Below are positions 27,448 to 47,012 of a DNA stretch of 64,000 nucleotides, one piece after another. Under the pieces are notes generated by a model. It had not been told where the DNA came from, searched no databases, and saw only the letters and a program-made list of their open reading frames with translations. The stretch's first letter is position 1. Each line of letters starts with the position of its first letter. Origin of the DNA: Desulfatiglandales bacterium (GTDB lineage Bacteria > Desulfobacterota > DSM-4660 > Desulfatiglandales > HGW-15); contig JBMNCO010000068.1 of assembly GCA_049366815.1 (NCBI GenBank), forward strand, positions 30,256 to 94,255, read 5' to 3'. The position numbers and the translations under genes are program-made.

Positions 27448-27939
27448 TCAATCCCAGTCCGCAAAGTTTTCCCAGAATTCCTTGTCCTTGTTTTTCCAGT
27501 CAGGACCAAACCTTCTGTCGTAAAAGGAGACCCACCTGTCGAGCCAGCGGATCCAGGGATTTCTCCCCTTCTCCTTGTCTTCCAGCACATCCTCCAGATA
27601 GGTGGCGATTTTCGTCATGTCGTCTTTGGGGATGTAGTATGCAGCGCCCTCCTTGTAAGACTTGACGGTGTCTTCAGGGCTGAGGGCATGGGCCGTCACC
27701 ATGACGGCGGTTATCTCCCGCCTTGTTGCTATTTCCAGCAACTTGTAACCATCGACACCCATGATGTCCAACAGGGCCAGATCAAAAAACCGGCTCTCCA
27801 GGAGCGCGGCGGCCTCGTCAAATGTCGAGGCGCACACCACATCACACATGGACAGCAACGACTCCAGTGTTTCAAGCACATCTTCTTCATCGTCCACAAT
27901 GAGTATTCTTTTACCGGTTAACAGGTCCTTAGCAGACAT
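27448..27939 (-). CDS. Stand-alone response-regulator receiver protein with a short Trp-rich C-terminal tail
   Basis: Start at ATG 27939 (GGGAGG SD 6 nt upstream). REC motifs ILIVDDEED, LALLDIMGVDG, VMVTAH and YYIPKD. No DNA-binding or enzymatic output domain. Confidence 0.85.
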   Translation of the reverse strand: MSAKDLLTGKRILIVDDEEDVLETLESLLSMCDVVCASTFDEAAALLESRFFDLALLDIMGVDGYKLLEIATRREITAVMVTAHALSPEDTVKSYKEGAAYYIPKDDMTKIATYLEDVLEDKEKGRNPWIRWLDRWVSFYDRRFGPDWKNKDKEFWENFADWD

Positions 27940-27985
27940 GACACAACCTCCCTGGGTCAAATGTAATTGAGATCTCCGTGCATTC

Positions 27986-29677
27986 TCAGATTTCCCGTCT
28001 AAACCTGTATCGCTCAAAGGGAATGTCTTCGGTCCTAAAGGATATCTCACCGCCCGCACCTTTTTCCGCAAGGATCCATTTCAGCCAGTTCTTATCGTCC
28101 GTTTCGCTGAAGTCTTCCCGGTAAAAGATGCTCTCCCGGGTCTCTCTTCGCATAAGCGCGGCCCTCAGCGTCATCTCAGCGGAAAGCACCATGGTCTGGG
28201 TCTCTTTCGCCTTGATGAGGGCCCTCACATCCCCACCCCACAATTGGGGCAGCTTTTTGTCTCTCAAAGTAACGATTTCGTCAAGGGCCTTTTTCAGATT
28301 GCCTTCGCTCATGACGATGAGGACATTTGCCGGGAAAAGGACCTCTTGCAGGTCATGGACCACCCTGTCGGGATCAAGGCCCGTCTCTTTTCGTAGAGGC
28401 TCAAGGAAATTTTCGCGCTTCTCGGCCAAAAGGACAAAATCGATTTCCTTAAAATCGACGGATCCTGCATAAAGAGCGGCGTTTTCCCCGGCCGTGTATC
28501 CCGACCACGTGCAGGCTGCGATGGACCAACCGGTGAAGGAATTGATCCCCAGGGTCCTGGCCATACCCGCGGCGAACAGACCCTCCAGGTCGGTTCGGCA
28601 ACGGCCGTCCGCCCGAATGCCGAGCTTATTGGATTCATAGGCCGGCTGCCACTCAATATTGTCTCTCAGGGGGTTGTAGCCCTCTTCCCGTTCACATTTT
28701 TCAAAGAGGATCGGCATCCACCCGTGGCTTACCTGAAGGGTACGAAAACGCTCCCGTTCTTCTTCCATCATTCCTTCGACGTCAATGGATATGGGGACAT
28801 TTCCCTTCATGGCCTCCTTTGCCGCCGAGACCACGATCTTCATGACAGGTGCCCTGTCCTTTAGTATTGGATCATACCTCTCCATGAAGTAGTCGCCGCG
28901 GATATTTTTCCAGCGGGCCCCGATTGCGGGCAAGATCCCCGATCCCTCTATTTCATGTCTGGCCGGGCGGATGTTGATGTAGTGAAATTCCGGGTTCTTT
29001 ATCCTCGCCCCGGCATCATAGGCCATAAAAGGACCCGTGCCCTGCAATTCACAGGCAAGGTGATGCCCTCTGTAGCCTCCCGAGTTTGTTGCCACGATAA
29101 CACTCTTGGCCTTGAAGAGGACATGCCTTGACTCACGGACCCCGATCCCCACGGCACCGGCTACACTGCCGTCCCTGGCCTTGAGCAGGTCGTACACGTA
29201 GACGTGATCGATGACCCGGACCCCTCTTGACAGGGCGACCTTTCTCAAGAGGGTCACCTCGTCCCCCGCCGTGGCATTCTCCGGCCACAGGTTCTTGACG
29301 TTCCTCGTTCCCCTGGCCCGGGTCCACACGTATTTCCCTTTCGCTTTTCTGAAAGAAATGCCAAAGGATTCCAAGTCCTTGAGACGCTCATAGGAGCCCC
29401 TGAAGACGGAGGCCACCATCTCCTGGTCCACAAGCCACTCATTCCCCGACACGATGTCCTGAAGGTACTCGTCCGGATCATCCTCCGGCAGAAGGACCAT
29501 CATGGCCCCACCGGCGAAAAAGGAATGTCCGGATTTGCCTGCAAAGGATTTGTCAACGAGGATTACGGTCGAACCGCGCTCGGCTGCCCTGAGGGCGGCC
29601 CACAATCCGCCGAACCCCCCGCCGATGATGAGCACATCTGAGCGTGTGACTTCCCACATCTCCGATTTTTTATTCAC
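27986..29677 (-). CDS. SdhA/FrdA/AprA-superfamily FAD flavoprotein (pair 1 large subunit)
   Basis: Likely GTG start at 29677 (GGAGG 7 nt upstream); an alternative ATG lies at 29659. Dinucleotide fold DVLIIGGGFGGLWAALRAAE. GLFAAG. C-terminal RRETRESIFYREDFSETDDKNWLKW capping motif. Confidence 0.8.
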   Translation of the reverse strand: MNKKSEMWEVTRSDVLIIGGGFGGLWAALRAAERGSTVILVDKSFAGKSGHSFFAGGAMMVLLPEDDPDEYLQDIVSGNEWLVDQEMVASVFRGSYERLKDLESFGISFRKAKGKYVWTRARGTRNVKNLWPENATAGDEVTLLRKVALSRGVRVIDHVYVYDLLKARDGSVAGAVGIGVRESRHVLFKAKSVIVATNSGGYRGHHLACELQGTGPFMAYDAGARIKNPEFHYINIRPARHEIEGSGILPAIGARWKNIRGDYFMERYDPILKDRAPVMKIVVSAAKEAMKGNVPISIDVEGMMEEERERFRTLQVSHGWMPILFEKCEREEGYNPLRDNIEWQPAYESNKLGIRADGRCRTDLEGLFAAGMARTLGINSFTGWSIAACTWSGYTAGENAALYAGSVDFKEIDFVLLAEKRENFLEPLRKETGLDPDRVVHDLQEVLFPANVLIVMSEGNLKKALDEIVTLRDKKLPQLWGGDVRALIKAKETQTMVLSAEMTLRAALMRRETRESIFYREDFSETDDKNWLKWILAEKGAGGEISFRTEDIPFERYRFRREI

Positions 29678-29705
29678 GTCCCTGCCTCCATATTTACAGC
29701 ATCGG

Positions 29706-29915
29706 CTACCAGGCCATGGGTCTGGGTTTTCTGAAGGGATGGACATCAATGGCGTTCACGGGGCATGCCAGCTCACAGCTGAAACAGGTCCAGCAATCCT
29801 GGGGATACTTGATTTTTGCCCTGTCGGCCTCGTCCATGATGATGACATCCCCGGGACAGAAGAGGGCGCAGATGCCGCACCCGATACATACCCTGCTGTC
29901 GATCTTTCGAATCAT
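29706..29915 (-). CDS. 2x[4Fe-4S] ferredoxin, AprB-like (pair 1 small subunit)
   Basis: ATG at 29915; the track start at 29924 is TTG. Cluster motifs CIGCGICALFCP and CWTCFSCELACP. Confidence 0.85.
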   Translation of the reverse strand: MIRKIDSRVCIGCGICALFCPGDVIIMDEADRAKIKYPQDCWTCFSCELACPVNAIDVHPFRKPRPMAW

Positions 29916-29962: not shown

Positions 29963-30673
29963 TCAAATCTCGACCCAACCCTCTTTGCAGCCCGCTCCCA
30001 GTCTCCACCGGTAATAGTTCCAGGTCCTCTGAAAGGCCTTGCCTTCGGTCACCTGTCTATGGATCTTCTCCACCTCCTCTTCAGGGAGCCAGTGAGGCTC
30101 ACCAAGCAGCATGGCCTGGTACTGGAGTCTAGCGGATTTTTCGGCCCATATGGCCGAAACGCAGGTCTCCTGGATCGATCCCCCCGTGACCAGGTTCCCG
30201 TGTCCCTTCAGGACCACGGTACCGGCCGATCCCATGGTATCGACGATCCTGTAACCCATGTCAAAATTATCCACCAGCCCGTACTCATCAAACATGGGGG
30301 CCTCCCTGCCGAAGGCGGTTGCCCCCAGGTTATCCATTGCCCGTAACCTCGTCCCGGTGGCGCTGAGGGCTACAATCGTCGGAGAATGCGTATGGGCGAT
30401 CGCCGCGACATCGGGACGTCTCTGGTAGACGGCGAGATGAAGGGGGATCTCCTTGGCCGCCTCAAGCCTGCCGTCCAGCCTTTTTCCGTCCAGGTCCAGC
30501 AGGACAAGATCCTCTTCGGTAGCCTGTCCCGGGCTGATCTTCCCGTTCATGAGCACCCTCTTTTTGCCGGGGATCCGCACACTGAAGTGACCCAACTCGT
30601 CCATGATCCCCTCGCGGTCGAGTATCCTACAGGCGGTCAAAAGGTCCTGTATCAATGTCCCATGAGACTCCAT
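29963..30673 (-). CDS. Class II aldolase/adducin-fold protein (aldolase, epimerase, dehydratase or decarboxylase; function open)
   Basis: 236 aa. GHFSVR...AIAHTHSP metal-binding His region. GGAGGAGG SD. Confidence 0.8.
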   Translation of the reverse strand: MESHGTLIQDLLTACRILDREGIMDELGHFSVRIPGKKRVLMNGKISPGQATEEDLVLLDLDGKRLDGRLEAAKEIPLHLAVYQRRPDVAAIAHTHSPTIVALSATGTRLRAMDNLGATAFGREAPMFDEYGLVDNFDMGYRIVDTMGSAGTVVLKGHGNLVTGGSIQETCVSAIWAEKSARLQYQAMLLGEPHWLPEEEVEKIHRQVTEGKAFQRTWNYYRWRLGAGCKEGWVEI

Positions 30674-30834: not shown

Positions 30835-32598
30835 TCATTCCAGAGGGATTCTGGAGACTTTGAATTCTCCGTTCTCCAGTCTGATCGTGGAAAAGGCAAG
30901 CCAATCCCTGTCGTCCTGTTCCGGAAAATCCGCCCTATAAAATCCGCAGGGATGCTTTCTCGTTTCCTCTCTGGCCAAAGAGGCCCTTATGATCATCTCA
31001 GCATTGTCCAAAAGTGATCTGACCTCCAGGCCCCGGGCCAGCTCGTGGGCAGTGAACACCTTGATGGGTTGCTCCCTGATATAGTGCAGGCGATCCAGGC
31101 CTCTTTTCAGCATCTCCCCGGTTTTTACATCGCCGCAATACGTATCCATGACGTTCTGCAGAGTATCCTCCACCTCGCGCCAGGTGAAACCTTCTCCCGG
31201 CCCAAACATCCCGGCGCATCGATCCCGCAATGACGCCAACTTGTCCTCCCCGGCCTCTTGAATCTGCAGCTCCCCCCGGGCGCGTTGTCCGGCCATATCC
31301 CCGGCCCGCCACCCCGTGGTGAAGGCCGCAGGCGAGGCACCGAAGGGCACTCCGCCCACTTCATCACCGGCGGCAAAAAGTCCTCTGATGCCGGTCTCCA
31401 TTTTTTCATCCACGGCCAGGCCCGACGCCGCAAGATTGCCAACCTCCCGACTGCCTAGACCGAGTTCCAGCTTGTCCCTTCTCAGGTCGAGTCCTTCCTC
31501 CCGCAGATGCCTCAGGAGCTGGCAGCACTTGCCCTCATGGCTGAGCGCCCATTCGACGTACCTGATCTCTTCCTCCGTCCCGCCGGTGCAGTCCACACAG
31601 AAGGGCCCGGATTCCTGGAGTTCTTTCCTGGACGGCATCCCCCGGGGTGTTATTCCTCCCCTTGCGAGCCATTGCCGTCTTGTCTCTTTCGCGTCTATCC
31701 GGTATCCTTTCTCAAGGTCACCCCATTCCGGAAAGGTGGTCTTCGGCACAATCGTTTCCCCGGCGGCATTCACGATCGCCGCTGCGGGCTGCCAGGTATT
31801 TCCAGGAGGCCTGCCCGCGGTCTCGTAATTGGCAAGCCCGTAACGCCTGGCCCCGAGAAATTCCATGTTCATAAGCGGAAGGCCGGCGTGAAGGGCCATC
31901 GCTTTACCGTCCGCAGAGAGGTTACCCGGAAGGTGCAGGTTGAAACAGGCACTTCCCGTGGATTCCCGGCCCATTCGACCGGTCTTTCCTCCTGCACTCA
32001 GGACGACGCTCTTGGCCTTCAGGACATAGAGATTGGGCTCTCGGGTGCCTACCCCCAGGGCACCGCAGACCTCTCCCCGGCGGGTCAACAGATCGGTCAC
32101 CATGACCCGATTGATGATCTTTGCCCCTCTTCTTTTCGCCTCGCGGGTCAGTATCATCTTCAGGGGACGCCCGTCAATATTCAAAGAGGTGGGCACACTG
32201 TGGAACTGATAGACCATCCTGAACTTTCCCGGAATGGTGCTGTCCTCGTATCGCACCTTGAGCCCGAATCTTTCCAGATCGAGCAGACGGGCGTACATTT
32301 CGCCTGCAATAAAACGGATGAGTTCCCTTTGGGCAAATCCGCAGGCCACACCCTGCATATGGTCCTCCACGAGGTCATCCAGGGTCCAGCCCATCTTTTC
32401 ATGGACCGGTGGGAAATAGCCCCAGATATGATCGATTCCCGATCCCGCCTGACCGCTGGAAAGAGTGTTGGCCTTGTCGACGACAAGGACATCCACATCC
32501 TGCTCCTTCGCCTTGATGGCCGCCATGCACCCGGCCAGCCCCCCTCCTATGACCAGAACATCCGTTTTGACCGAAACAACTTCCATCCGGGGATCCAT
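30835..32598 (-). CDS. SdhA/FrdA/AprA-superfamily FAD flavoprotein (pair 2 large subunit)
   Basis: DVLVIGGGLAGCMAAIKAKE. GLFAAGDE. C-terminal REETRKHPCGFYRADFPEQDDRDWLAF. GGAGA SD 5 nt upstream of ATG 32598. Confidence 0.8.
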   Translation of the reverse strand: MDPRMEVVSVKTDVLVIGGGLAGCMAAIKAKEQDVDVLVVDKANTLSSGQAGSGIDHIWGYFPPVHEKMGWTLDDLVEDHMQGVACGFAQRELIRFIAGEMYARLLDLERFGLKVRYEDSTIPGKFRMVYQFHSVPTSLNIDGRPLKMILTREAKRRGAKIINRVMVTDLLTRRGEVCGALGVGTREPNLYVLKAKSVVLSAGGKTGRMGRESTGSACFNLHLPGNLSADGKAMALHAGLPLMNMEFLGARRYGLANYETAGRPPGNTWQPAAAIVNAAGETIVPKTTFPEWGDLEKGYRIDAKETRRQWLARGGITPRGMPSRKELQESGPFCVDCTGGTEEEIRYVEWALSHEGKCCQLLRHLREEGLDLRRDKLELGLGSREVGNLAASGLAVDEKMETGIRGLFAAGDEVGGVPFGASPAAFTTGWRAGDMAGQRARGELQIQEAGEDKLASLRDRCAGMFGPGEGFTWREVEDTLQNVMDTYCGDVKTGEMLKRGLDRLHYIREQPIKVFTAHELARGLEVRSLLDNAEMIIRASLAREETRKHPCGFYRADFPEQDDRDWLAFSTIRLENGEFKVSRIPLE

Positions 32599-32742
32599 TT
32601 CGTCTCCTTCCTTTTTCAGCTACCGGCCCCGCGCCGGCGCCTCGAATCATCGTTTGGTGGATACCATGCTCTCCCACGGTATCACCCCCATGTTGGATGT
32701 CCTGCGCAAAATACCTCTTCCAGCCTTTTTGCGCCCTCCAGG

Positions 32743-33021
32743 TCAGGGCCTCCGGCCCCGCACCGCCGAGACCCTCATGGGGAGGGGGATGATCACCCTG
32801 ACGGCTCCCTTGTCCTTCACAGGACAGGTGTCTATGCAACAGCCGCAAAACCAGCATTCCTCGGGATAGGTCACGACAGGAGGCTTCCCCTTTTCCTGAT
32901 TGGGCGCAAGGACGTCCATCGGGCAGATGTCCACGCACCGGTTGCATCCGCTGCAGATTTCTTCATTGATCTGTATGGCCCTGAAACGGCTTGGAACCAT
33001 GTATTGCCGAGTCTCTTCCAT
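32743..33021 (-). CDS. 2x[4Fe-4S] ferredoxin, AprB-like (pair 2 small subunit)
   Basis: ATG at 33021 with a GGGAGG SD. Motifs CSGCNRCVDICP and YPEECWFCGCCIDTCP. Confidence 0.85.
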   Translation of the reverse strand: MEETRQYMVPSRFRAIQINEEICSGCNRCVDICPMDVLAPNQEKGKPPVVTYPEECWFCGCCIDTCPVKDKGAVRVIIPLPMRVSAVRGRRP

Positions 33022-35292: not shown

Positions 35293-36309
35293 TTATTCGA
35301 TGACACCGATTTCCCGGTAGTATTTGGCGGCCCCCGGGTGAAGCTCCACCATGACGTCCCTTGCCATGATCTCTGGAGTAAGATCTCTCAGATTGGCGTG
35401 AACCTTGTGGAGATAATCCAGCTTTTCGTGCATGGCCTTCACCACGTCATACACCAGGTCATCGGGCTGATCGACACTGGTCAGCAGGATAAGTTTCGAG
35501 TTCAAGGTGCGGCAGTCCTCCTCCTGCCAGGGATAGGTCTTGGCCGGTATGGTGAAGGGCTCCATCCCGAGCTCCTTGCCGAGGGCCTGAAGCTTGTCCT
35601 CGTCAATGGAGAGCATCCTTAATTTGTGCTTTTGACCGTGTTCCAGATACCTGCTGGCTGGGAACTGGGCCACCTCCTGCGCGGCGTCGAGCTGTCCCGC
35701 ATCCCAGAGATCTACGGCCTGGGCGGATGGGATGTAATGCACCTTTCCTCCCCATTTCTCGATATTTTTATAGGAGGCCCCATAGGCCTCCAGGACCTTT
35801 TCGCCGGAAAGGTGCATGATGGTTCCCCTTCGATTTGCGCACACACGCAGGGGATATTTTTTCTCCGCGAGATCCTGGAAGCTCTTGATACCCGTCTTCT
35901 CGTCGATAATGAACTGGAAGGCGCCGGTGGGATTGAGAACCGCAACGGTCCTGACATTGGGATATTTTTTCTTGTAGGGTTCCATGCCGCTGAAGGCTGC
36001 AAAGTTTGTGGCATCGTAGGTGACCGCAAACTGGACCTCGTTTCGGCTGATCATGACCTGATTGGGGCCGTCCTTTCCCGGTTCCGTGGTAATCTGTGCG
36101 TCGGGAAGGGATCGTCGGATGCTTTCGGCGACACCCTCCGTAATCACGGACCAGACGCCTCCGACAGATCCTCCCAGGATCGTCATTTTATAGTCCTTGC
36201 CGGCGGCCTGGACGTGGCCCGGCGTCAACAAGAGGGTCAAGGACAACAGCAGACCAAAGGCCGGCATCACGATGGAAAGACATCTATTCTGAAATTTTCT
36301 CACACACAT
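35293..36309 (-). CDS. TAXI-family TRAP transporter solute-binding protein
   Basis: ATG at 36309 (GAGGAGGAG SD); the track start at 36324 is TTG. Signal peptide ...LLSLTLLLTPGHVQA. ILGGSVGGVWSVITEGVAE and HPGAAKYYRE blocks are typical of TAXI receptors. Confidence 0.78.
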   Translation of the reverse strand: MCVRKFQNRCLSIVMPAFGLLLSLTLLLTPGHVQAAGKDYKMTILGGSVGGVWSVITEGVAESIRRSLPDAQITTEPGKDGPNQVMISRNEVQFAVTYDATNFAAFSGMEPYKKKYPNVRTVAVLNPTGAFQFIIDEKTGIKSFQDLAEKKYPLRVCANRRGTIMHLSGEKVLEAYGASYKNIEKWGGKVHYIPSAQAVDLWDAGQLDAAQEVAQFPASRYLEHGQKHKLRMLSIDEDKLQALGKELGMEPFTIPAKTYPWQEEDCRTLNSKLILLTSVDQPDDLVYDVVKAMHEKLDYLHKVHANLRDLTPEIMARDVMVELHPGAAKYYREIGVIE

Positions 36310-41039: not shown

Positions 41040-42350
41040 CTATTTGATAAGCATATTAGGGAGCCATGTGACCAGGCCCTCAAAAAAAATGACCGGCAAC
41101 ATCCCAAGGATATAGAGAAGCCAATAAGGTGCTGAACCCTGGATCACATCATTTAAACTGACCTCGGGGGGGGCAACGCCCTTGATGACATAAAGCACAA
41201 TACCCACAGGGGGCGTGATGGTTGCTATTCCACAGTTGATCATGGTCAATATCCCGAACCAGTATAGATCAAAACCAAGGGCCTTGACGATGGGCAGGTA
41301 AATGGGGGTGAAGATAAACAGTATGGACGCCGGGTCCATAAGGCATCCCGCAAGAATAATCAAAATCTGCATGAGAGCGAATATGAACCAGCGGGACACG
41401 GGCAGGGACGTCACCCAGGCGGCCAACTCCGAGGCGAAACCCGTACCGGCCATGATTTGTGTGAATAGGGTCCCGCCGATGAGAATGAACATGACCATAC
41501 AGTTGACTTGGATCGTGGAGAGAAGAATCCTTCTGAGGATATCCCAGTTCAGTTTTCTGTAAAAAAGGAGCAGACATATGGAACCAAAGGCACCCAGCGC
41601 AGCGGCCTCGCTGGGCGACGCCACCCCACCCCATATCGAACCCAGAACCAGAAAAACAAGGAGAAGGAGGGGGAGAATATAGGCGCTGATTCGCAACTTT
41701 TCCGCCAAACCCGAATGGACGCGTTCGGGGGAAGGTGCCATTTCGGGATTGAAAATGGCCCGAAAAATAATATACAGGACAAAGACCCCGGCAATGATCA
41801 GGCCCGGGATCACCCCTGCATAGAACAGCCGGCCCACGGATATCTCAGCCAGGGAACCGTAAATGATCATCAAAATGCTGGGGGGGATAATGATGGCCAG
41901 TCCGGCCCCTCCCGCAAGGGCACCGAGCCCAAGGCCCTTGTCATATTTTCTTTTGATCATTTCCGGAATAATTCCGGGGCCGAGGGCGGAGCACGTGGCC
42001 GGCGCAAACCCGGTCACAGCCCCGAAAATGGTGCAACAACCCACGGCCGTGACCGCGACCCCGCCGGGTACCCACCCGAGCCAGATGTCGATCATCTTAA
42101 AGGCGTCATTCCCGATACCGCTTACGGCCACGCACTCTCCCATGAATATGAAAAGAGGGATGGCGATGAGTAAGAAACTGGCATTGGTCGTATAGGCGGA
42201 CGATGCGACCATCATGAGACCATCGAATCCCCAGAGGAAATACATCACCACCATGGACACAAAACAGAGTGAAAAAGCTACGGGAATACCGATCATCAGA
42301 AGCAAGACAAGAAACACAAAACATATAACACCGATAAGCCACCATTCCAT
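41040..42350 (-). CDS. dctM: TRAP transporter large permease DctM
   Basis: 436 aa, 12-TM-type hydrophobic profile. Sits in a DctP-DctQ-DctM gene order. Confidence 0.9.
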   Translation of the reverse strand: MEWWLIGVICFVFLVLLLMIGIPVAFSLCFVSMVVMYFLWGFDGLMMVASSAYTTNASFLLIAIPLFIFMGECVAVSGIGNDAFKMIDIWLGWVPGGVAVTAVGCCTIFGAVTGFAPATCSALGPGIIPEMIKRKYDKGLGLGALAGGAGLAIIIPPSILMIIYGSLAEISVGRLFYAGVIPGLIIAGVFVLYIIFRAIFNPEMAPSPERVHSGLAEKLRISAYILPLLLLVFLVLGSIWGGVASPSEAAALGAFGSICLLLFYRKLNWDILRRILLSTIQVNCMVMFILIGGTLFTQIMAGTGFASELAAWVTSLPVSRWFIFALMQILIILAGCLMDPASILFIFTPIYLPIVKALGFDLYWFGILTMINCGIATITPPVGIVLYVIKGVAPPEVSLNDVIQGSAPYWLLYILGMLPVIFFEGLVTWLPNMLIK

Positions 42351-42426: not shown

Positions 42427-42930
42427 CTAAAATCGGCCTGTCGATTCTCCTGAGCGGTATGTGTTGATATTCTTGATGGCCTTGGCAAGGGTCTGAAGCA
42501 TAAGGAAAAAACCGCCGACAGGCACGATAATGTAACTCGGGAACAGGGGCAGAAGGCTGATGGAGGTGGTGCGGGCATAAAGATTTTCCCATGCCAGTTC
42601 CCAGCCCTTTATCATGAGCACGACACAGAAGGTCACTATGGCCAGATAATGACAACATTTCAGGAAAAACCGCTTTCGGGTTGAAAAGGCATCGAAGAAA
42701 AGGGAGATGTTCACATGGCCGTCAACCTGCAGGGTATAGGCACCACCTAAAAAGACGGCTCCCACCAGCAGGAATTCCGAGAAGTCCAGAGGCCAATCCA
42801 GGGGACTGTTTAAAACATATCGCATGATCACCGCATACACATTGGAAACAATCAAGACAAGGACTAAAAATCCTGCCAAGATTGCCAAAGCCCGACAAAT
42901 CGTATCAATCAATCTGATGAATCCCGTCAT
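42427..42930 (-). CDS. dctQ: TRAP transporter small permease DctQ
   Basis: Start chosen at ATG 42930 (GAGGG SD 7 nt upstream). 167 aa with 4 hydrophobic helices. Confidence 0.8.
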   Translation of the reverse strand: MTGFIRLIDTICRALAILAGFLVLVLIVSNVYAVIMRYVLNSPLDWPLDFSEFLLVGAVFLGGAYTLQVDGHVNISLFFDAFSTRKRFFLKCCHYLAIVTFCVVLMIKGWELAWENLYARTTSISLLPLFPSYIIVPVGGFFLMLQTLAKAIKNINTYRSGESTGRF

Positions 42931-43016: not shown

Positions 43017-44027
43017 TCACTCACCGGTCTTTTTGAATGCCTGAATAATGCTTTCGGCATATTTTGGGGAAAGCTTGTGGGCCGCTTCGTTCGCCCCCTT
43101 CTCCACGGCTTCGAGAAAAGCCCTCTTCTCATCTTCGGGCAGATCGAAAAATACAACATTCTGCTGGGGAAATTTTCCCATAAGTGCCTGATCTTTCTTT
43201 TCCCAGAAATCGACTGCCTGGCGTGTTGCATCCTTTCCGGCTTCAAGGAGGATCTTCTGAAACTCATCGGACAGTTTGTCCCATGCCCTCAAGCTGATGC
43301 AGATATCTCCCGTTGCCCATGTCACGGGCGTGCTGATGCCATAACGGGTCAATTCGTATTCTTTAAAACTGTTCAAAGCCGGCAGATTTCTCACCGCGCC
43401 GTCGATAATTCCCCTTTCCAAGGCGATGTAGACCTCTGTAGAAGGTGTCGTCACCGGCGTTGCGCCCAGGGCCTTTACAATAAAGGGCACATACCCCCCA
43501 TGGCCCCGGATTTTCATGCCCTTCAGATCAGCCATACTTTTCAAAGGTTCCTTTGTCCAGAGGTAGAAGGGGAAGACCTGGGTACATCCAATAGGCTTGA
43601 TCTTCAGTTCCTTTTCTAGAAGCGGACCCACGATCCGCCGTGTTTCATAGTAAGCGGCCGACTCTGTTTTGTATGAACGGAATAACGGATAGGCATCGGC
43701 AATACCCGCGGCCGGGACCCGTCCCCCATGATAACCCACACAGGTCTGCATGACATCGATGGTGCCGGCCTGTCCTGCCGTTGAAAAATCCTTTTCTTTT
43801 ACATATTCCGGCCCGCCAACCCATCTGATTTGCAGTCGGCCCTGTGAACGTTCTTTGACCAGATCAAAAAAACGAAAATAGATCGTGGTAAACGGTGAGG
43901 TTTGGGGCCAGGCGCCTGTAGCCTTTAAGACGGTGGGTTCCGCGGCGGCCCGGTCAGGGGACAAAACAGAACAGCCGAATACCAATAAAACGGCAATTCC
44001 CAACAAAATGACCCGGTTTCTCTTCAT
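43017..44027 (-). CDS. dctP: TRAP transporter substrate-binding protein DctP family
   Basis: ATG at 44027 with an AGGAGG SD. Signal peptide with lipobox-like LLVFGCS. DctP-type fold blocks LKGMKIRGHGG and NSFKEYELTRY. Confidence 0.88.
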   Translation of the reverse strand: MKRNRVILLGIAVLLVFGCSVLSPDRAAAEPTVLKATGAWPQTSPFTTIYFRFFDLVKERSQGRLQIRWVGGPEYVKEKDFSTAGQAGTIDVMQTCVGYHGGRVPAAGIADAYPLFRSYKTESAAYYETRRIVGPLLEKELKIKPIGCTQVFPFYLWTKEPLKSMADLKGMKIRGHGGYVPFIVKALGATPVTTPSTEVYIALERGIIDGAVRNLPALNSFKEYELTRYGISTPVTWATGDICISLRAWDKLSDEFQKILLEAGKDATRQAVDFWEKKDQALMGKFPQQNVVFFDLPEDEKRAFLEAVEKGANEAAHKLSPKYAESIIQAFKKTGE

Positions 44028-44177: not shown

Positions 44178-44963
44178 TCATTGTATTTCGTGAATGACTG
44201 ATGTGCCGGGAATTCGCGCACTATCCCCGGCGGCCTTTTCAAGCCGGGAAAGCTCCTTTTGTATGCCTATGATATGCCCTCTCATTTCTTCATACGCCAT
44301 GTCGGGGTCTCCCTTTCTTATTCCCTCTATAATTTGCGCGTGTTGCCGTATGAGTTCATGCTTTCCTTGATCGTCCAGCCGGATACCCTTCATACGCGAG
44401 GCATGGATATCCGTGAGCACCTTCATGAGCAGGGCGAATACGCGATTGCCCGATATCTCCGCAATCAAGCTGTGGACACTCTGGTCATGCCCGATATCCG
44501 CCCCACCGCACATCAACTCCTCCGCGTGCCGTTGACAAGCCTCTTCCAGTTTCTTGATATCTTCCTTTCCAGCCCTCCGTGCCGCCTCTGCGGCCACGGG
44601 GGGCTCTATTGCAAGTCTCGCCTGCCTGATCTCCTCAAGACTCACCTGTCCGAGCTGAAGCATATCCTTGAAGGAATCTACAATGGGACGCGGATCGCTG
44701 ATATTTACATAGGCCCCTCCGAGCACCCCCTTTTTGACCTTGATCAGGCCGGCTTTCTCCAAAGAACGGAGGGCCTCCCTGACGCTTGAGCGGCTTGCAT
44801 CAAACATCTCGGCAAGCTCACGTTCAGGAGGTATCCTGTCGCCCTCTCCAAAATGGTTGTCAAATATGGCCTGTCTAATCTGAGTTTCTATGAGATGGGA
44901 AATTCTCTGGGGTCGAACACTTGAGAATATCTTTTTGCTCATCTTTATTGATTTTTCGTTCAT
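44178..44963 (-). CDS. GntR-family transcriptional regulator, FadR/FCD subfamily (copy 2, paralogue of 37526..38290)
   Basis: IPPERELAEMFDASRSSVREALRSLEKAGLIKVKKGVLGG. Shares AIEPPVAAEAARRA and the LDDQ...HA.IIEGI blocks with copy 1. Confidence 0.9.
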   Translation of the reverse strand: MNEKSIKMSKKIFSSVRPQRISHLIETQIRQAIFDNHFGEGDRIPPERELAEMFDASRSSVREALRSLEKAGLIKVKKGVLGGAYVNISDPRPIVDSFKDMLQLGQVSLEEIRQARLAIEPPVAAEAARRAGKEDIKKLEEACQRHAEELMCGGADIGHDQSVHSLIAEISGNRVFALLMKVLTDIHASRMKGIRLDDQGKHELIRQHAQIIEGIRKGDPDMAYEEMRGHIIGIQKELSRLEKAAGDSARIPGTSVIHEIQ

Positions 44964-45034: not shown

Positions 45035-45042
45035 TTTATTCC

Positions 45043-45071: not shown

Positions 45072-45229
45072 CAGAAAATATGGCCGTATCATTCTTCCCG
45101 AATACTTGACAGGGCGGATGAATATGTAAAATTGCCATCTTTGACTCTTGATTTCCACCGAGGCAGCGAAAGGTGGGGCCGGAATTTTCCTGTTGGATCC
45201 AGACGGGCTTTGATATCTTTTGACCGCAC

Positions 45230-45265
45230 AAAAAAACCGAGGCTGATAACTTCGATCAGCCTCGG
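45230..45265 (-). terminator. Rho-independent terminator of the CoA-ligase gene
   Basis: The minus strand shows CCGAGGCTGAT-cgaagtt-ATCAGCCTCGG followed by TTTTTTT. 11-bp perfect stem, ~90 nt after the stop. Confidence 0.85.
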
Positions 45266-45353
45266 TTTAACGAACCGGAAAGGATCAGGTTTTCCCGTCT
45301 AGCCGAAAAACCTGGCCATTATCCTGTCCTTGTCACTTTTTGTTCTATTTGTT

Positions 45354-47012
45354 CTATGCGCCCTCTTGCTCGAGCTTTTTCTTGATGTCTTCCTGCAGGG
45401 AGCGTTTGTCCACCTTTTCGGCTCCGGTGTAGGGCATGGCATCAATAAATTCGATCCGCTCGGGAAGCTGAAGCACCGAGGCCTTCTGGCCCTTCAGGAA
45501 GTCGATGATCCCTTCAAAGGTCGGCTGCGCACCGGCCTTGGGCTGGACATAGGCGCAAACCCTTTCGCCCATGAGCTTATCGGGCATGGCGATGACCGCC
45601 ACTCCGGCGACATCCTCATGACGGCTGATGAGTCTCTCGATGTCCGTCGCACTGATGCTCTCTCCGCCGCGGTTGATCATCTCCTTGATTCGGCCTGTGA
45701 GTGAAATATAGCCCTTTTCATTGATCTTGGCCACATCCCCGGTCCTGAAGAACCCGTCCTTCGTGAAAATCGCTTTGTTCTCCTCAGGATTGTTGTAGTA
45801 GCCTGTGAAGACGCCGGGCCCCTTAAGGACCAATTCACCTGACGTGTTGAGGGGAAGTTCGTTGCCCTCTGGGTCAATGACCTTGTACGTATCATAGGGG
45901 CAGGTGGGTCTTCCCACGGTGGTGCAAATGGTCTCCAGGTCATCCGTGGTGCGGGTGATGGTCGTCATGCCCTCTGTGGCCCCGTACCCGTTGTAGAACT
46001 TCATTCCCAACCGCTCGGTCACCTCTTTGACCAGATTGGGATGGCTTGCACCGCCGGCGCTGTGCATCTTTTTCAGGGTGCTCAAATCATACTTGTCGAG
46101 GTCTTCGAATTGGAGCATCCTTTGCGCCAGGGTGGGCACCCAGACGATGGCGGTCACTTTTTCCTTTTGGATTGTTTCGCAGATGTCTTCATTTCTCACA
46201 GAGTCCAGAAGGATGGCCTTTCCGAAGGTGAGTATGCAACCCATGAAGCCCTTGGAAAAGGACAGGTCGTGACCCAGGGGGCCACAGAGCAGGGTGACGT
46301 CATCACAGTGCTGATCCCAGGATTGGGCGCAATAATAGATGCCGGTCACCAGACTGTTGTGCGAGCGGCCGACGATCTTGGGCGCACCGGTTGTACCGCC
46401 GGTCGGTCCCATGTGGGCGACCTGCATGGGGTCAGGCCGCCTTTCGGCCAGGCGGGCCAGATTTTCATCGGTCAATTCACCCGCTTCCATCAGCTTTTCG
46501 AGGCTTGAAAAGGGCTTCTGATCCCCCTCTCCCCGGACGGTAATCACATGCTTTATCTGAGGATTTTCCTTCAGGACGTCATTGATGATGGGAATATAAT
46601 CCGTTTTCTTGTATCGGGAAGGGACTATCCAGGCCGTGGCCCCGGTGAGGCCGGCCAGGTGGTTTATCTCAAACTGACGATACCTGTCGATCAGCAATAC
46701 CGGAATGGCTCCGATCTTCTGGACGGCAAAATAGGCAAAGACGAATTCGTTCCAGTTCGGAAGCTGAACCATAACCCGATCCATGGGCTTGATGCCCAGA
46801 TCCATCATGCCTATGGCCAGCTTATTGGTCTTTTCCCGGGCCTCCCCGTAGGTCAGCCGCGTTATCCCGTCCACGAAGGCCTCTTTGTCCGGGTGGATAT
46901 CTGCGGCCCTGTCAAGACAATCGCCGAAGGTCAGCCCAAACCACCACCGGTTGTCGTAATACTTTTTGATATCCTCGTCACTGTAAGGTACATATCCATC
47001 AATATACTTCAT
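45354..47012 (-). CDS. AMP-forming acyl/aryl-CoA ligase (ANL superfamily; aryl-acid/2,3-dihydroxybenzoate-AMP-ligase-like)
   Basis: AMP-binding motif PTGGTTGAPKIV, GYGATEG, and C-terminal hinge IKEMINRGGESIS. AGGAGG SD. Confidence 0.88.
   Translation of the reverse strand: MKYIDGYVPYSDEDIKKYYDNRWWFGLTFGDCLDRAADIHPDKEAFVDGITRLTYGEAREKTNKLAIGMMDLGIKPMDRVMVQLPNWNEFVFAYFAVQKIGAIPVLLIDRYRQFEINHLAGLTGATAWIVPSRYKKTDYIPIINDVLKENPQIKHVITVRGEGDQKPFSSLEKLMEAGELTDENLARLAERRPDPMQVAHMGPTGGTTGAPKIVGRSHNSLVTGIYYCAQSWDQHCDDVTLLCGPLGHDLSFSKGFMGCILTFGKAILLDSVRNEDICETIQKEKVTAIVWVPTLAQRMLQFEDLDKYDLSTLKKMHSAGGASHPNLVKEVTERLGMKFYNGYGATEGMTTITRTTDDLETICTTVGRPTCPYDTYKVIDPEGNELPLNTSGELVLKGPGVFTGYYNNPEENKAIFTKDGFFRTGDVAKINEKGYISLTGRIKEMINRGGESISATDIERLISRHEDVAGVAVIAMPDKLMGERVCAYVQPKAGAQPTFEGIIDFLKGQKASVLQLPERIEFIDAMPYTGAEKVDKRSLQEDIKKKLEQEGA

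What the first reader, a model, noticed from the sequence alone, without database searches (positions are those of the whole stretch)
27448..47012. 20-kb co-directional orphan catabolic supercluster with no pathway assignment I can make
Seventeen consecutive minus-strand genes run in this order:
- aryl/acyl-CoA ligase
- GntR/FCD regulator 2
- DctP, DctQ, DctM
- cytoplasmic Mo-bisPGD enzyme
- GntR/FCD regulator 1
- PhtD-like decarboxylase
- TAXI solute receptor and TAXI fused permease
- ferredoxin 2 and flavoprotein 2
- class II aldolase/adducin-fold protein
- ferredoxin 1 and flavoprotein 1
- stand-alone receiver

Seen directly: two independent TRAP-class uptake systems. Established knowledge: TRAP/TAXI receptors characteristically bind carboxylates.

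There are two candidate cofactor-independent decarboxylase folds. One is the PhtD family. The other is the class II aldolase fold, which includes the aromatic decarboxylase 3-hydroxy-2-methylpyridine-4,5-dicarboxylate decarboxylase.

The cluster also has an ANL ligase of the aryl-acid type, a Mo enzyme with no export signal, and two soluble FeS-flavoprotein redox modules.

Inference: this is an oxygen-independent route for a carboxylated (hydroxy)aromatic or polycarboxylic acid, with uptake, decarboxylation, hydroxyl-group chemistry at Mo, ene- or C-X reduction by flavoproteins, and CoA activation. It does not match the known benzoyl-CoA, phthaloyl-CoA/UbiD, gallate/phloroglucinol or sulfonate pathways as I know them.
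Basis: partly seen in the sequence, partly recalled or inferred. Interest (0 to 1): 0.7.

Follow-up and report, generated by a model that had tools for sequence, protein, structure and literature searches.

The report
Composite anaerobic aromatic-acid catabolic gene cluster
The 20-kb gene run is real, but it is three separate units placed side by side, and one of them is a widespread, still uncharacterised module of strict anaerobes that probably breaks down hydroxylated aromatic acids without oxygen.

Summary
Window 27448-47012 carries 16 (not 17) consecutive minus-strand genes, and every family call is right. The window comes from a Desulfatiglandales MAG. Housekeeping genes flank the cluster.

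The reading as one integrated pathway is only partly supported. Comparative genomics and a strong terminator split the run into three units.
1. A monocistronic aryl-acid ligase of the salicylate/2,3-DHB adenylating type.
2. GntR2-DctPQM-Mo. This autonomous module occurs alone elsewhere. Its Mo/W-bisPGD enzyme belongs to the acetylene-hydratase/catechol-dehydroxylase clade but lacks the hydratase Asp13.
3. GntR1, PhtD-like decarboxylase, TAXI, two ferredoxin plus AprA/Frd-like flavoprotein pairs, class II aldolase-fold protein, receiver.

The core of unit 3 recurs, with orthologs at 59-75% identity, in Syntrophales and other anaerobe contigs, using TAXI or Tct transporters. Those contigs carry neither the Mo module nor the ligase.

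The PhtD-like protein is an anaerobe sister clade of genuine 4,5-dihydroxyphthalate decarboxylases. It keeps 101 of 114 invariant positions, and none of 31 anaerobe loci has dioxygenase partners.

The most likely role is oxygen-independent uptake, decarboxylation and ferredoxin-linked redox conversion of hydroxylated aromatic (poly)carboxylates. The substrate remains unknown. I found no published assignment.

The parts
45354..47012 (-). Aryl-acid adenylate-forming ligase (ANL family), 552 aa. It forms its own transcription unit.
   Evidence: Pfam AMP-binding 3.4e-74. Best PDB matches are salicylate-AMP ligase 5wm2 (5.4e-96) and DhbE (4.6e-93). The DhbE equivalog scores 358 bits against a cutoff of 724, so it is not met. 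A 52% ortholog is adjacent to a PhtD ortholog in L098.
45234..45268 (-). Intrinsic terminator directly after the ligase gene.
   Evidence: 14-bp stem with 7 GC pairs plus a T-run. Free energy -24 kcal/mol, z = -4.7, 0 of 200 shuffles fold as well.
44178..44963 (-). GntR/FCD regulator 2, the first gene of the TRAP-Mo unit.
   Evidence: Pfam GntR plus FCD. 53% identical to GntR1. An 83% ortholog heads GntR-DctPQM-Mo in L168. A TTGACA-type promoter-like site lies upstream.
43017..44027 (-). DctP solute receptor of the TRAP transporter (336 aa, using the start called in near-identical L085).
   Evidence: PF03480 5.8e-32 and NF037995 above cutoff. A signal peptide is seen in the sequence. The gene start is taken from L085.
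42427..42924 (-). DctQ small TRAP membrane subunit.
   Evidence: PF04290 8.4e-27. The start is taken from L085.
41040..42350 (-). DctM large TRAP permease.
   Evidence: TIGR00786 scores 338 bits against a cutoff of 268.
38537..40927 (-). Cytoplasmic Mo/W-bisPGD enzyme with an N-terminal [4Fe-4S] domain. It belongs to the acetylene-hydratase/catechol-dehydroxylase clade.
   Evidence: Best PDB match is acetylene hydratase at 1.4e-72; the next best is 2e-50. About 29-33% identity and 248 bits to Gordonibacter Cldh and Dodh, and 32% identity and 323 bits to the D. toluolica homolog. All 108 orthologs keep Cys16, Cys46, Lys48 and Cys141 (Cys9 in 106 and Cys12 in 107 of 108), and 0 of 108 keep Asp13. 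There is no Tat leader.
37526..38290 (-). GntR/FCD regulator 1, the first gene of the PhtD unit.
   Evidence: Pfam GntR plus FCD. Orthologs of 57% (L087) and 50% (L173) sit next to PhtD orthologs.
36507..37502 (-). PhtD-like non-oxidative decarboxylase with a periplasmic-binding-protein fold. It is cytoplasmic.
   Evidence: 9jp7 (4,5-dihydroxyphthalate decarboxylase) matches at 4.4e-86. 101 of 114 positions invariant in genuine PhtDs are retained. Relatives in anaerobe-type contexts are 59-77% identical and never lie next to Rieske or dihydrodiol-dehydrogenase genes (0 of 31 loci).
35293..36309 (-). TAXI-family TRAP solute receptor.
   Evidence: TIGR02122 scores 165 bits against a cutoff of 84. 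A signal peptide is present. Orthologs of 63-69% lie next to PhtD orthologs in L007, L090 and L094.
33104..35071 (-). TAXI fused DctQM-type permease.
   Evidence: TIGR02123 scores 612 bits against a cutoff of 321. A 76% ortholog is present in L007.
32743..33021 (-). Ferredoxin 2 (2x[4Fe-4S], 92 aa), the partner of flavoprotein 2.
   Evidence: Fer4_7 4.4e-12. A 66% ortholog lies upstream of the Flavo2 ortholog in L172.
30835..32598 (-). Flavoprotein 2, from the AprA/PAPS-reductase-like branch of the fumarate-reductase superfamily.
   Evidence: FAD_binding_2 plus Succ_DH_flav_C. Best PDB match is PAPS reductase alpha 8a8o at 8.8e-42. AprA Asn74 is replaced by Trp. A 68% ortholog is present in L172.
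29963..30673 (-). Class II aldolase/adducin-fold protein, a candidate metal-dependent decarboxylase or aldolase.
   Evidence: PF00596 1.5e-34. PhtC (3,4-dihydroxyphthalate decarboxylase) scores 90 bits against a cutoff of 200, and other class II members score about the same. Orthologs of 59-70% lie adjacent to PhtD orthologs in L088, L093, L108 and L173.
29706..29915 (-). Ferredoxin 1 (2x[4Fe-4S], 69 aa), the partner of flavoprotein 1.
   Evidence: Fer4_7 3.9e-11 and weak aprB-like similarity. Orthologs of 70-78% lie directly upstream of Flavo1 orthologs in L086, L172 and L173.
27986..29677 (-). Flavoprotein 1, a divergent Frd/AprA-superfamily FAD enzyme.
   Evidence: FAD_binding_2 1.6e-32 plus Succ_DH_flav_C. 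Best PDB match is PAPS reductase alpha at 9e-28. FrdA His232, His355 and Arg390 are not conserved. Orthologs of 68-77% are widespread and lie adjacent to PhtD modules in L086, L172 and L173.
27448..27939 (-). Stand-alone receiver protein with a roughly 50-aa C-terminal tail. It is the last gene of the run.
   Evidence: PF00072 9.3e-12, with no output domain found. It is absent from the core modules L172 and L173. A 49% ortholog lies next to a Mo ortholog in L003.

Best explanation
The run is a composite catabolic locus built from three units that exist independently elsewhere. It is not one operon for one pathway.

Unit 1 is a monocistronic aryl-acid (salicylate/2,3-DHB-type) ligase.

Unit 2 is GntR2-DctPQM-Mo.
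- A TRAP system imports a carboxylate.
- A soluble Mo/W-bisPGD enzyme of the acetylene-hydratase/catechol-dehydroxylase clade acts on it in the cytoplasm.
- Inferred: the chemistry concerns a ring hydroxyl, for example reductive dehydroxylation of a catecholic acid.

Unit 3 runs GntR1, PhtD-like, TAXI, Fd2/Flavo2, AldII, Fd1/Flavo1, receiver. It is the local version of a conserved, uncharacterised module found in strict anaerobes.
- A TAXI (or, elsewhere, Tct) transporter imports a di- or tricarboxylate.
- The PhtD-like enzyme removes a carboxyl group para to a ring hydroxyl. Chemistry of the 4,5-dihydroxyphthalate decarboxylase type is shown to be likely by conservation.
- The metal-dependent class II aldolase-fold protein performs a second decarboxylation or a C-C cleavage (inferred).
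- Two ferredoxin-coupled AprA/Frd-like flavoenzymes carry out two-electron steps on the ring or on an enoate moiety (inferred; direction and substrate unknown).

The products would be (ortho-)hydroxybenzoate-type monoacids. The ligase could activate these for the central anaerobic aromatic pathway (inferred).

The units probably cooperate on related hydroxylated aromatic (poly)carboxylates. The paralogous regulators and the shared chemical theme point that way, but each unit is self-sufficient.
For: Architecture:
- A strong terminator follows the ligase.
- Promoter-like TTGACA sites lie upstream of both GntR genes.
- The Mo unit occurs alone, with orthologs of 80-85% identity, and is followed by unrelated genes in L170.
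- More distant Mo orthologs sit alone among housekeeping genes.
- Two unbiased look-ups starting from Flavo1 orthologs both landed in PhtD modules. L172 carries Tct, PhtD 61%, AldII-like, Fd2 66%, Flavo2 68%, Fd1 70%, Flavo1 70%. L173 carries GntR1 50%, PhtD 66%, AldII 59%, TAXI, Fd1 75%, Flavo1 72%. Neither carries Mo, DctPQM or ligase.
- AldII orthologs are adjacent to PhtD in L088, L093 and L108, and Fd1/Flavo1 orthologs in L086.

Substrate class:
- PhtD matches the solved structure 9jp7 at 4e-86 and keeps 101 of 114 positions invariant in genuine PhtDs.
- Genuine PhtDs are recognised by context: 57 of 132 loci carry a Rieske gene and 46 of 132 a dihydrodiol-dehydrogenase gene. In the anaerobe clade the count is 0 of 31.
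- The ligase is closest to salicylate/2,3-DHB adenylating enzymes.
- In L098 the order is UbiD, PhtD 61%, ligase 52%.
- The Mo enzyme is closest to acetylene hydratase. It is equally close to the soluble catechol dehydroxylases Cldh and Dodh, and closer still to the D. toluolica homolog from the tree in PMC7028382.
- GntR1 and GntR2 are 53% identical paralogs.
Against: - No enzyme reaches an equivalog cutoff, and no substrate was identified.
- PhtD orthologs occur in very varied contexts: hydantoinase A/B, Fe-ADH, AOR, MFS, PrpD. The family may therefore act on several substrates.
- TAXI and Tct transporters and Frd-like enzymes would fit non-aromatic tricarboxylates equally well.
- The hairpin after the Mo gene is not significant (z = -0.9). 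Read-through from unit 2 into unit 3 is therefore possible.
- The promoter scan as a whole is not above chance (14 sites found, 11.6 expected).
- The Mo enzyme differs from Cldh and Dodh in its N-terminal Cys motif and has no adjacent small FeS partner.
- Cooperation between the units rests on juxtaposition in a single lineage only.
Confidence: 0.5

Rival explanations
1. One integrated pathway. All 16 genes act on one imported carboxylated hydroxyaromatic substrate. Two uptake systems serve the substrate and an intermediate. Mo hydroxyl chemistry, two decarboxylations, two flavin reductions and a final CoA activation follow.
For: - The genes are strictly co-directional, with short gaps between them.
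- The whole set is retained in L085.
- The GntR regulators are paralogs, 53% identical.
- The functions share a coherent chemical theme.
- The hairpin after the Mo gene is weak.
Against: - L085 is 97-100% identical, so it is not an independent observation.
- In every more distant genome the units are separate.
- The ligase is isolated by a strong terminator.
- A Mo enzyme is absent from all but one of 162 PhtD-anchored loci, and the one exception is only a 33% relative.
Confidence: 0.2
2. Chance juxtaposition. Three unrelated carboxylate-utilisation units happened to land next to each other in one Desulfatiglandales lineage, for instance in an insertion-prone site beside tRNA genes.
For: - tRNA-Cys and tRNA-Gly lie directly upstream, with imuB/dnaE2 on the other side.
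- Transposase genes lie next to related modules in L173 and L098.
- Each unit is found alone elsewhere.
Against: - Independent family-level evidence places all three units in hydroxyaromatic-acid chemistry.
- The regulators are close paralogs.
- A ligase ortholog is linked to a PhtD ortholog in L098.
- GC content does not deviate from the flanks.
Confidence: 0.15
3. The conserved core (unit 3) degrades a non-benzenoid polycarboxylate. Candidates are an unsaturated tricarboxylate (aconitate or tricarballylate type) or a heterocyclic dicarboxylate (pyridine, pyrone or furan dicarboxylate). The Frd-like enzymes would reduce carboxylate-conjugated C=C bonds. The two decarboxylases would act on the resulting beta-keto or vinylogous keto acids.
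For: - The transporters are of the tricarboxylate (Tct) or TAXI type.
- There are two enoate-reductase-like flavoproteins, each with its own ferredoxin.
- The class II aldolase family includes beta-keto-acid and pyridine-dicarboxylate decarboxylases (established knowledge).
- The core contains no CoA ligase.
- PhtD orthologs sit in diverse, non-aromatic-looking contexts.
Against: - 89% of the positions invariant in genuine 4,5-dihydroxyphthalate decarboxylases are retained.
- PhtD orthologs are linked to UbiD and an aryl ligase in L097 and L098.
- Flavo1 lacks the fumarate-binding His and Arg residues.
Confidence: 0.15

Closest known systems
4,5-Dihydroxyphthalate decarboxylase (PhtD/Pht5/OphC; PDB 9jp7) of aerobic phthalate operons
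   Same: Full-length homology at 4.4e-86, about 53% identity to context-verified members. 101 of 114 invariant positions are retained, and the length (about 330 aa) is the same.
   Different: The window protein belongs to a separate clade of 59-77% mutual identity found in anaerobe-type contexts. That clade is never linked to the Rieske dioxygenase or dihydrodiol dehydrogenase (0 of 31 loci, against 57 and 46 of 132). It shows clade-wide substitutions: F42W, P78T, L123F, R227K. Its partners are an aldolase-fold protein, ferredoxin-flavoprotein pairs, and TAXI or Tct transporters.
Soluble catechol dehydroxylases of Gordonibacter (Cldh, Dodh) and their environmental homologs (PMC7028382)
   Same: Both are bis-PGD enzymes of about 790-800 aa without a Tat signal. 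Both have acetylene hydratase as the nearest solved relative and are encoded next to a transporter. Identity is 29-33%, and 32% over the full length to the D. toluolica homolog, including a shared insertion.
   Different: The window enzyme has the classical CxxCxxxC FeS motif of acetylene hydratase, not the C-x3-C pattern of Cldh and Dodh. It has no adjacent small 4Fe-4S partner gene. Its transporter is TRAP rather than MFS. Identity is too low to infer the reaction.
Acetylene hydratase (Pelobacter acetylenicus, PDB 2e7z)
   Same: It is the best solved match (1.4e-72). The four FeS cysteines, Lys48 and the metal-ligand Cys141 are conserved.
   Different: The catalytic Asp13 is Ser here and is absent in 108 of 108 orthologs. 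Ile142 is Gln or Asn, and Trp179 is mostly Arg. The window enzyme is about 70 aa longer.
APS/PAPS reductase AprAB-type flavoprotein-ferredoxin pairs (PDB 1jnr, 8a8o) and thiol:fumarate reductase TfrA
   Same: Both use a two-gene layout: a 2x[4Fe-4S] ferredoxin plus a soluble FAD protein with a Succ_DH_flav_C domain. These are the best solved matches for both flavoproteins.
   Different: E-values are only 1e-28 to 1e-42. AprA Asn74 is not conserved in Flavo2. FrdA His232, His355 and Arg390 are not conserved in Flavo1. The NCBIfam cutoffs are far from reached.
Anaerobic phthalate/isophthalate degradation via CoA thioesters and UbiD-type decarboxylases
   Same: Both involve anaerobic hosts, carboxylate uptake by TRAP-class transporters, decarboxylation as the key step and an aryl-acid ligase nearby.
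   Different: The window contains no UbiD or UbiX. Decarboxylation here would be on the free acid, by PBP-fold and aldolase-fold enzymes. UbiD is seen only in the related loci L097 and L098.

Membership tests
4,5-dihydroxyphthalate decarboxylase (PhtD) | Full-length sequence homology to a solved or characterised PhtD. | tested here: met
   9jp7 matches at 4.4e-86 over residues 4-326.
4,5-dihydroxyphthalate decarboxylase (PhtD) | Retention of the positions invariant among context-verified PhtDs. | tested here: met
   101 of 114 positions that are at least 95% invariant are identical. Of the 13 differences, 3 (F42W, P78T, I119L) are shared by more than 80% of the anaerobe clade.
4,5-dihydroxyphthalate decarboxylase (PhtD) | Genomic linkage to phthalate 4,5-dioxygenase and cis-dihydrodiol dehydrogenase. 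| tested here: not met
   0 of 31 loci of the 59%-or-higher clade, and none in the window. In the lower-identity group the counts are 57 and 46 of 132.
4,5-dihydroxyphthalate decarboxylase (PhtD) | Decarboxylation of 4,5-dihydroxyphthalate to protocatechuate. | not testable with these tools
   An enzyme assay is needed.
Acetylene hydratase | bis-PGD fold with an N-terminal [4Fe-4S] cluster and a Cys metal ligand. | tested here: met
   Cys9, Cys12, Cys16, Cys46, Lys48 and Cys141 equivalents are conserved in 106-108 of 108 orthologs.
Acetylene hydratase | Catalytic Asp13 next to the FeS cysteine, and the hydrophobic substrate ring (Ile142, Trp179). | tested here: not met
   Asp13 is Ser here and is kept in 0 of 108 orthologs. 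Ile142 is Gln or Asn. Trp179 is Arg in 72 of 108. Residue roles are from my knowledge of the 2e7z structure paper.
Catechol dehydroxylase (soluble Cldh/Dodh type) | Closer to acetylene hydratase and the dehydroxylases than to other characterised bis-PGD enzymes. This is the criterion used in PMC7028382. | tested here: met
   Acetylene hydratase scores 248 bits against 175 or less for other solved enzymes. Cldh and Dodh score about 248 bits summed. The D. toluolica homolog scores 323 bits.
Catechol dehydroxylase (soluble Cldh/Dodh type) | No Tat signal, size about 790-800 aa, and an adjacent transporter. | tested here: met
   796 aa with no RR leader. DctPQM lies directly upstream. Features are as described in PMC7028382.
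Catechol dehydroxylase (soluble Cldh/Dodh type) | An adjacent small 4Fe-4S partner protein, and the Cldh/Dodh-type N-terminal Cys pattern. | tested here: not met
   There is no ferredoxin gene in the GntR2-DctPQM-Mo unit, here or in L168 and L170. The motif is CSQCSCWC, against GPGCHEGC in Cldh.
Catechol dehydroxylase (soluble Cldh/Dodh type) | Reductive removal of a catechol hydroxyl. | not testable with these tools
   An anaerobic enzyme assay is needed.
Fumarate reductase / succinate dehydrogenase flavoprotein | FAD_binding_2 plus Succ_DH_flav_C domain architecture. | tested here: met
   Both flavoproteins have it.
Fumarate reductase / succinate dehydrogenase flavoprotein | Dicarboxylate-binding and catalytic residues (E. 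coli FrdA His232, His355, Arg390), and family score cutoffs. | tested here: not met
   In Flavo1 these are Arg, Glu and Ser in the pairwise alignment to 3cir. NCBIfam scores are 178-241 bits against cutoffs of 567-826. The alignment is weak in the capping domain, so the residue mapping is only moderately reliable.
Adenylylsulfate (APS) reductase AprAB | A flavoprotein plus a 2x[4Fe-4S] ferredoxin subunit encoded together. | tested here: met
   Both the Fd1/Flavo1 and Fd2/Flavo2 pairs fit. Weak aprB similarity at 5e-11.
Adenylylsulfate (APS) reductase AprAB | Active-site Asn74 and the equivalog score. | tested here: not met
   Asn74 is Trp in Flavo2. aprA scores 116 bits against a cutoff of 642, and PRK06854 scores 184 against 557.
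Class II aldolase/adducin superfamily | Pfam PF00596 above its cutoff, plus the metal-binding His triad. | tested here: met
   119.9 bits against a cutoff of 22.2. The AHTHS and KGHG motifs are visible in the sequence. Mapping to FucA His92, His94 and His155 is from memory.
3,4-dihydroxyphthalate decarboxylase (PhtC) | NCBIfam equivalog NF053537 above its cutoff. | tested here: not met
   90.4 bits against a cutoff of 200. The score cannot be told apart from epimerase and aldolase models at 91-102 bits.
TRAP transporters (DctPQM and TAXI) | A receptor plus membrane components, above family cutoffs. | tested here: met
   TIGR00786, NF037995, TIGR02122 and TIGR02123 are all above their cutoffs, and PF04290 is present.
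Aryl-acid adenylating enzymes (DhbE/EntE/salicylate-AMP ligase) | The closest solved relatives are aryl-acid adenylating enzymes. | tested here: met
   5wm2 at 5.4e-96 and 1md9 at 4.6e-93. Fatty-acyl and coumarate ligases score 1e-49 or weaker.
Aryl-acid adenylating enzymes (DhbE/EntE/salicylate-AMP ligase) | The equivalog score, and an aryl-carrier-protein or NRPS partner. | tested here: not met
   TIGR02275 scores 358 bits against a cutoff of 724. There is no carrier-protein or NRPS gene in the window. A CoA-ligase role is therefore more likely, by inference.

The most novel reading that the evidence does not exclude
The conserved module encodes a previously undescribed, oxygen-independent, CoA- and UbiD-independent route. 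The module comprises the PhtD-like decarboxylase, a class II aldolase-fold enzyme, two ferredoxin plus AprA-like flavoprotein pairs, a TAXI or Tct transporter and a GntR regulator. In this route, hydroxylated benzene polycarboxylates (hydroxyphthalate-type compounds from lignin, humic matter or plasticiser breakdown) are decarboxylated and reduced or dearomatised at the free-acid level. The ferredoxin-driven flavoenzymes involved come from a clade known so far only for sulfur chemistry. In this Desulfatiglandales lineage the module is combined with a new subfamily of cytoplasmic Mo/W dehydroxylase-like enzymes.
Probability: 0.2. Interest if true: 0.8.

Novelty: new variant of a known kind. Interest (0 to 1): 0.55.

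Why it matters
Known anaerobic routes for phthalate-type acids all pass through CoA thioesters and prenyl-FMN (UbiD) decarboxylases.

Here, close relatives of the aerobic 4,5-dihydroxyphthalate decarboxylase turn out to be widespread in strict anaerobes, including Desulfatiglandales, Syntrophales and Desulfobacterales. Relatives are 59-77% identical among themselves. They are always stripped of their oxygenase partners. They are repeatedly joined to an aldolase-fold protein and to two ferredoxin-flavoprotein pairs.

This defines a concrete, testable candidate for a free-acid, oxygen-independent route for hydroxylated aromatic polycarboxylates in sediments and digesters. It also assigns a genomic context to two enzyme clades that have no known function: AprA-like flavoproteins lacking the APS site, and an acetylene-hydratase-like Mo enzyme family lacking the hydratase aspartate.

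If the substrate were identified, it would extend the map of anaerobic aromatic carbon turnover. It could also supply new cofactor-light decarboxylases for biocatalysis.

Tried and rejected
- **Exact-sequence look-up of the Mo protein.** It was not on record. The organism was identified instead through the homolog search.
- **Shared GntR operator.** The GGTCTGACC palindrome upstream of GntR2 is not enriched and does not recur in the other intergenic regions (19 matches found, 15.6 expected). One inverted-repeat call failed on a strand argument and was not repeated.
- **Riboswitch or RNA elements such as Moco.** Only the two tRNAs and a sub-threshold McaS hit came up, and that hit is the ligase terminator.
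- **Terminator after the Mo gene.** The hairpin folds no better than shuffled sequence (z = -0.9), so I do not use it as evidence.
- **The flavoproteins as genuine APS/PAPS reductases acting on sulfonates or sulfate esters.** Rejected: Asn74 is not conserved and the scores are far below cutoff.
- **The flavoproteins as genuine fumarate reductases.** Rejected on the catalytic residues. A possible covalent-FAD histidine in Flavo1 depends on a one-residue alignment shift, so I make no claim about it.
- **The Mo enzyme as acetylene hydratase.** Rejected.
- **Receptor ligand prediction from solved TAXI and DctP structures.** The best hits are only 1e-18 to 1e-20 and are uninformative.
- **Literature searches for an existing assignment.** Queries covered PhtD in anaerobes, hydroxyphthalate in sulfate reducers, and the gene combination. 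Nothing relevant was found.
- **Structure prediction and fold search.** Not used. The sequence matches to solved structures were already unambiguous at the fold level, and a fold match would not identify the substrate.

Full report
**Observation**

Between 27448 and 47012 the minus strand carries an uninterrupted run of 16 genes. The gene calls on a 97-100% identical public contig (L085) also give sixteen.

Pfam and NCBIfam confirm every family assignment:
- a receiver domain;
- two FAD_binding_2/Succ_DH_flav_C flavoproteins, each preceded by a small 2x[4Fe-4S] ferredoxin;
- a class II aldolase-fold protein;
- a TAXI receptor and a fused permease, both above the TIGR cutoffs;
- two GntR/FCD regulators;
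- a Mo-bisPGD enzyme with an Fe4S4 domain;
- DctP, DctQ and DctM;
- an AMP-binding ligase.

The 'PhtD-like' protein has no Pfam or NCBIfam family. It matches the solved 4,5-dihydroxyphthalate decarboxylase 9jp7 at 4.4e-86.

The Mo enzyme has no Tat leader, and PhtD has no signal peptide. The two receptors have signal peptides (sequence).

The window derives from a Desulfatiglandales MAG (100% match).

The flanks are housekeeping genes:
- imuB and dnaE2 on one side;
- tRNA-Cys and tRNA-Gly on the other, followed by SLT, tal and folK, then lysine and arginine biosynthesis genes.

**Is it one unit?**

A 14-bp GC-rich hairpin with a T-run sits immediately after the ligase gene. Its free energy is -24 kcal/mol, z = -4.7, and 0 of 200 shuffles fold as well. 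The ligase is therefore its own transcription unit.

Both GntR genes are preceded by long intergenic regions with similar TTGACA-type promoter-like sequences. The promoter scan overall is at chance level. The hairpin after the Mo gene is not significant. The separation of the remaining genes therefore rests on comparative evidence.

**Comparative evidence**

I anchored on the central PhtD gene, whose ±10-kb flanks cover the whole cluster. I fetched 80 genome loci and 80 metagenome loci and searched them with all 16 proteins. The complete set occurs only in L085, the same lineage.

The Mo enzyme is a well-conserved family, with over 100 relatives at 49-85% identity in Desulfobacterota and Chloroflexota. 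Its neighbours vary:
- At 80-85% identity it is preceded by GntR-DctPQM (L168, L169) or DctPQM (L170). In L170 it is followed by unrelated genes on the other strand.
- At 62-83% identity it stands alone among housekeeping genes (L001, L004, L171).

GntR2-DctPQM-Mo is therefore an autonomous module.

The PhtD gene behaves differently. Within the clade that is at least 59% identical to it, its immediate neighbours recur:
- a class II aldolase-fold gene in 8 of 30 scored loci, plus a split copy in L087 (orthologs of 68-70% in L088, L093 and L108);
- Fd1/Flavo1 orthologs (78% and 69%) in L086;
- other Frd-like flavoproteins in L006, L007 and L096;
- TAXI components in L007, L009, L088, L090 and L094;
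- GntR in L087 and L096-L098.

The decisive test was to start from the other end. I made two look-ups of Flavo1 orthologs, chosen only for contig length. Both landed in PhtD modules:
- L172 (Syntrophales) carries TctA/B, PhtD (61%), an aldolase-fold gene, Fd2 (66%), Flavo2 (68%), Fd1 (70%) and Flavo1 (70%), with a GntR nearby.
- L173 carries GntR1 (50%), a Frd-like gene, a GltD-like gene, PhtD (66%), AldII (59%), the TAXI receptor and permease, Fd1 (75%) and Flavo1 (72%).

Neither locus has the Mo enzyme, DctPQM or the ligase.

Unit 3 of the window is therefore one instance of a conserved module. Its core is a PhtD-like protein, an aldolase-fold protein, one or two ferredoxin-flavoprotein pairs, a di- or tricarboxylate transporter and a GntR regulator.

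**What the parts are**

*PhtD-like protein.* In the lower-identity group (about 53%), from aerobes, 57 of 132 loci carry a Rieske phthalate-dioxygenase-like gene. 46 of 132 carry the GFO-type dihydrodiol dehydrogenase. These are genuine phthalate operons. In the anaerobe clade the count is 0 of 31.

Of 114 positions that are at least 95% invariant in 37 context-verified PhtDs, 101 are identical in the window protein. The differences include clade-wide changes: F42W, P78T, L123F and R227K. The decarboxylation chemistry is therefore probably conserved. According to the classical enzymology cited in PMC13040137, that chemistry is loss of a carboxyl group para to a ring hydroxyl. The substrate pocket appears to be altered.

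*Ligase.* Its closest solved relatives are salicylate-AMP ligase and DhbE (about 1e-95), well ahead of fatty-acyl and coumarate ligases. A 52% ortholog follows a PhtD ortholog in L098, and a UbiD-family decarboxylase lies just upstream.

*Mo enzyme.* The nearest solved structure is acetylene hydratase (1.4e-72). All cofactor ligands are kept. The catalytic Asp13 is Ser and is absent in 108 of 108 orthologs.

PMC7028382 shows that catechol dehydroxylases form the sister group of acetylene hydratase. The soluble Gordonibacter enzymes lack a Tat signal, are smaller and sit next to transporters. Homologs occur in Desulfobacula, Desulfomonile and other anaerobic aromatic degraders.

Using sequences recovered from that paper's supplement, the window enzyme compares as follows:
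- 29-33% identity to Cldh and Dodh, about 248 bits summed, the same as to acetylene hydratase;
- 32% identity over the full length (323 bits) to the D. toluolica homolog, with which it shares a roughly 70-residue insertion.

This is a lead, not a membership proof. The N-terminal Cys motif differs, and no small FeS partner is adjacent.

*Flavoproteins.* They are only 28% identical to each other. The best solved match for both is the methanogen PAPS reductase alpha subunit, followed by AprA or FrdA.
- Flavo2 lacks AprA Asn74.
- Flavo1 lacks FrdA His232, His355 and Arg390.

They are neither APS reductases nor fumarate reductases. They belong to an uncharacterised ferredoxin-coupled branch.

*Aldolase-fold protein.* It keeps the His triad. 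As far as I can map from memory of FucA, it has lost the phosphate-binding serines. It scores about equally against the epimerase, aldolase and PhtC models, all below their cutoffs.

**Most likely mechanism**

Shown: there are three units, and each includes its own uptake or activation function.

Likely, from conservation: unit 3 imports a carboxylate and removes a carboxyl group by PhtD-type chemistry.

Inferred:
- The aldolase-fold enzyme performs a second decarboxylation or a C-C cleavage.
- The two ferredoxin-flavoprotein pairs perform two-electron steps on the ring or an enoate.
- Unit 2 imports a (catecholic) acid and changes its ring-hydroxyl pattern at Mo or W.
- The ligase thioesterifies the resulting (ortho-)hydroxybenzoate for the central anaerobic pathway, which must be encoded elsewhere.

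The 53% identity between the two regulators and the common chemical theme suggest that the units work on related compounds. This remains inference.

**Rivals**

- A single integrated pathway. This is disfavoured by the independence of the modules.
- Chance juxtaposition. The tRNA-flanked position and the transposases next to related modules make it possible. The shared theme argues against it.
- A non-benzenoid substrate for the core. The transporters and the enoate-reductase-like enzymes support it. The conservation of PhtD and the links to UbiD and the ligase argue against it.

**Novelty**

No equivalog model, solved structure or paper in the searched library assigns a function to this module. 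All the folds are known.

What is new is the conserved combination, its restriction to anaerobes, and the fact that it lacks the CoA/UbiD logic of known anaerobic phthalate routes. I rate it a new variant of a known kind, namely anaerobic aromatic-acid catabolic clusters. It is of moderate to good interest and directly testable.

Noticed in passing
window 47516-47680 (minus) and 23110-27391 (plus): tRNA-Cys and tRNA-Gly lie directly upstream of the ligase, and an imuB-dnaE2 mutasome cassette lies directly downstream of the receiver gene. The cluster therefore occupies an island-like slot, although its GC content does not differ from the flanks.
   Followed up: partly
window 35075-35292 (intergenic, minus strand): A very stable hairpin without a T-run follows the TAXI receptor gene (-29 kcal/mol, z = -2.5). 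It looks like the mRNA-stabilising stem often found after solute-receptor genes.
   Followed up: partly
window 27448-27939; L003 12604-13107: The stand-alone receiver has a 49% ortholog directly next to a 69% ortholog of the Mo enzyme in L003. It is missing from the conserved core modules L172 and L173. Its partner kinase and its role are unknown.
   Followed up: partly
L098 1-8838 and L097: Two UbiD-family decarboxylase genes and a GntR flank a PhtD ortholog. L098 reads UbiD, a 128-aa ORF, PhtD (61%), ligase (52% to the window ligase), with a DDE transposase fragment nearby.
   Followed up: partly
L173 11731-12189: An IS200-type Y1 transposase gene sits immediately after the Flavo1 ortholog. 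This hints that the module is mobile.
   Followed up: no
L087 13247-13981: In a Desulfobacula MAG the aldolase-fold gene next to GntR, PhtD and TctC/TctA is split into two ORFs of 123 and 119 aa. This may be a frameshift or a pseudogene.
   Followed up: no
L086, L099, L102, L005, L012, L013: Other PhtD orthologs sit next to tungsten-type aldehyde:ferredoxin oxidoreductase, SDR or Fe-ADH genes, or next to hydantoinase/acetone-carboxylase-like A and B subunits. The anaerobe PhtD clade is therefore used in several different gene contexts.
   Followed up: partly
window 31507-33027 (+) and 32900-34348 (+): Long plus-strand ORFs of 506 and 482 aa lie inside the cluster. They are antisense shadows of the Flavo2, Fd2 and TAXI permease genes, with low-complexity Arg/Gly/Pro-rich translations. 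They are not genes.
   Followed up: yes
window 20485-22161 (minus): A 558-aa protein carries two nitroreductase-family stretches. It lies near the imuB/dnaE2 cassette and Lon protease, and appears unrelated to the cluster.
   Followed up: no
window 47754-48719 (+) and 22288-23172 (-): Two ORFs of about 300 aa bordering the cluster have no Pfam match at 1e-5.
   Followed up: no
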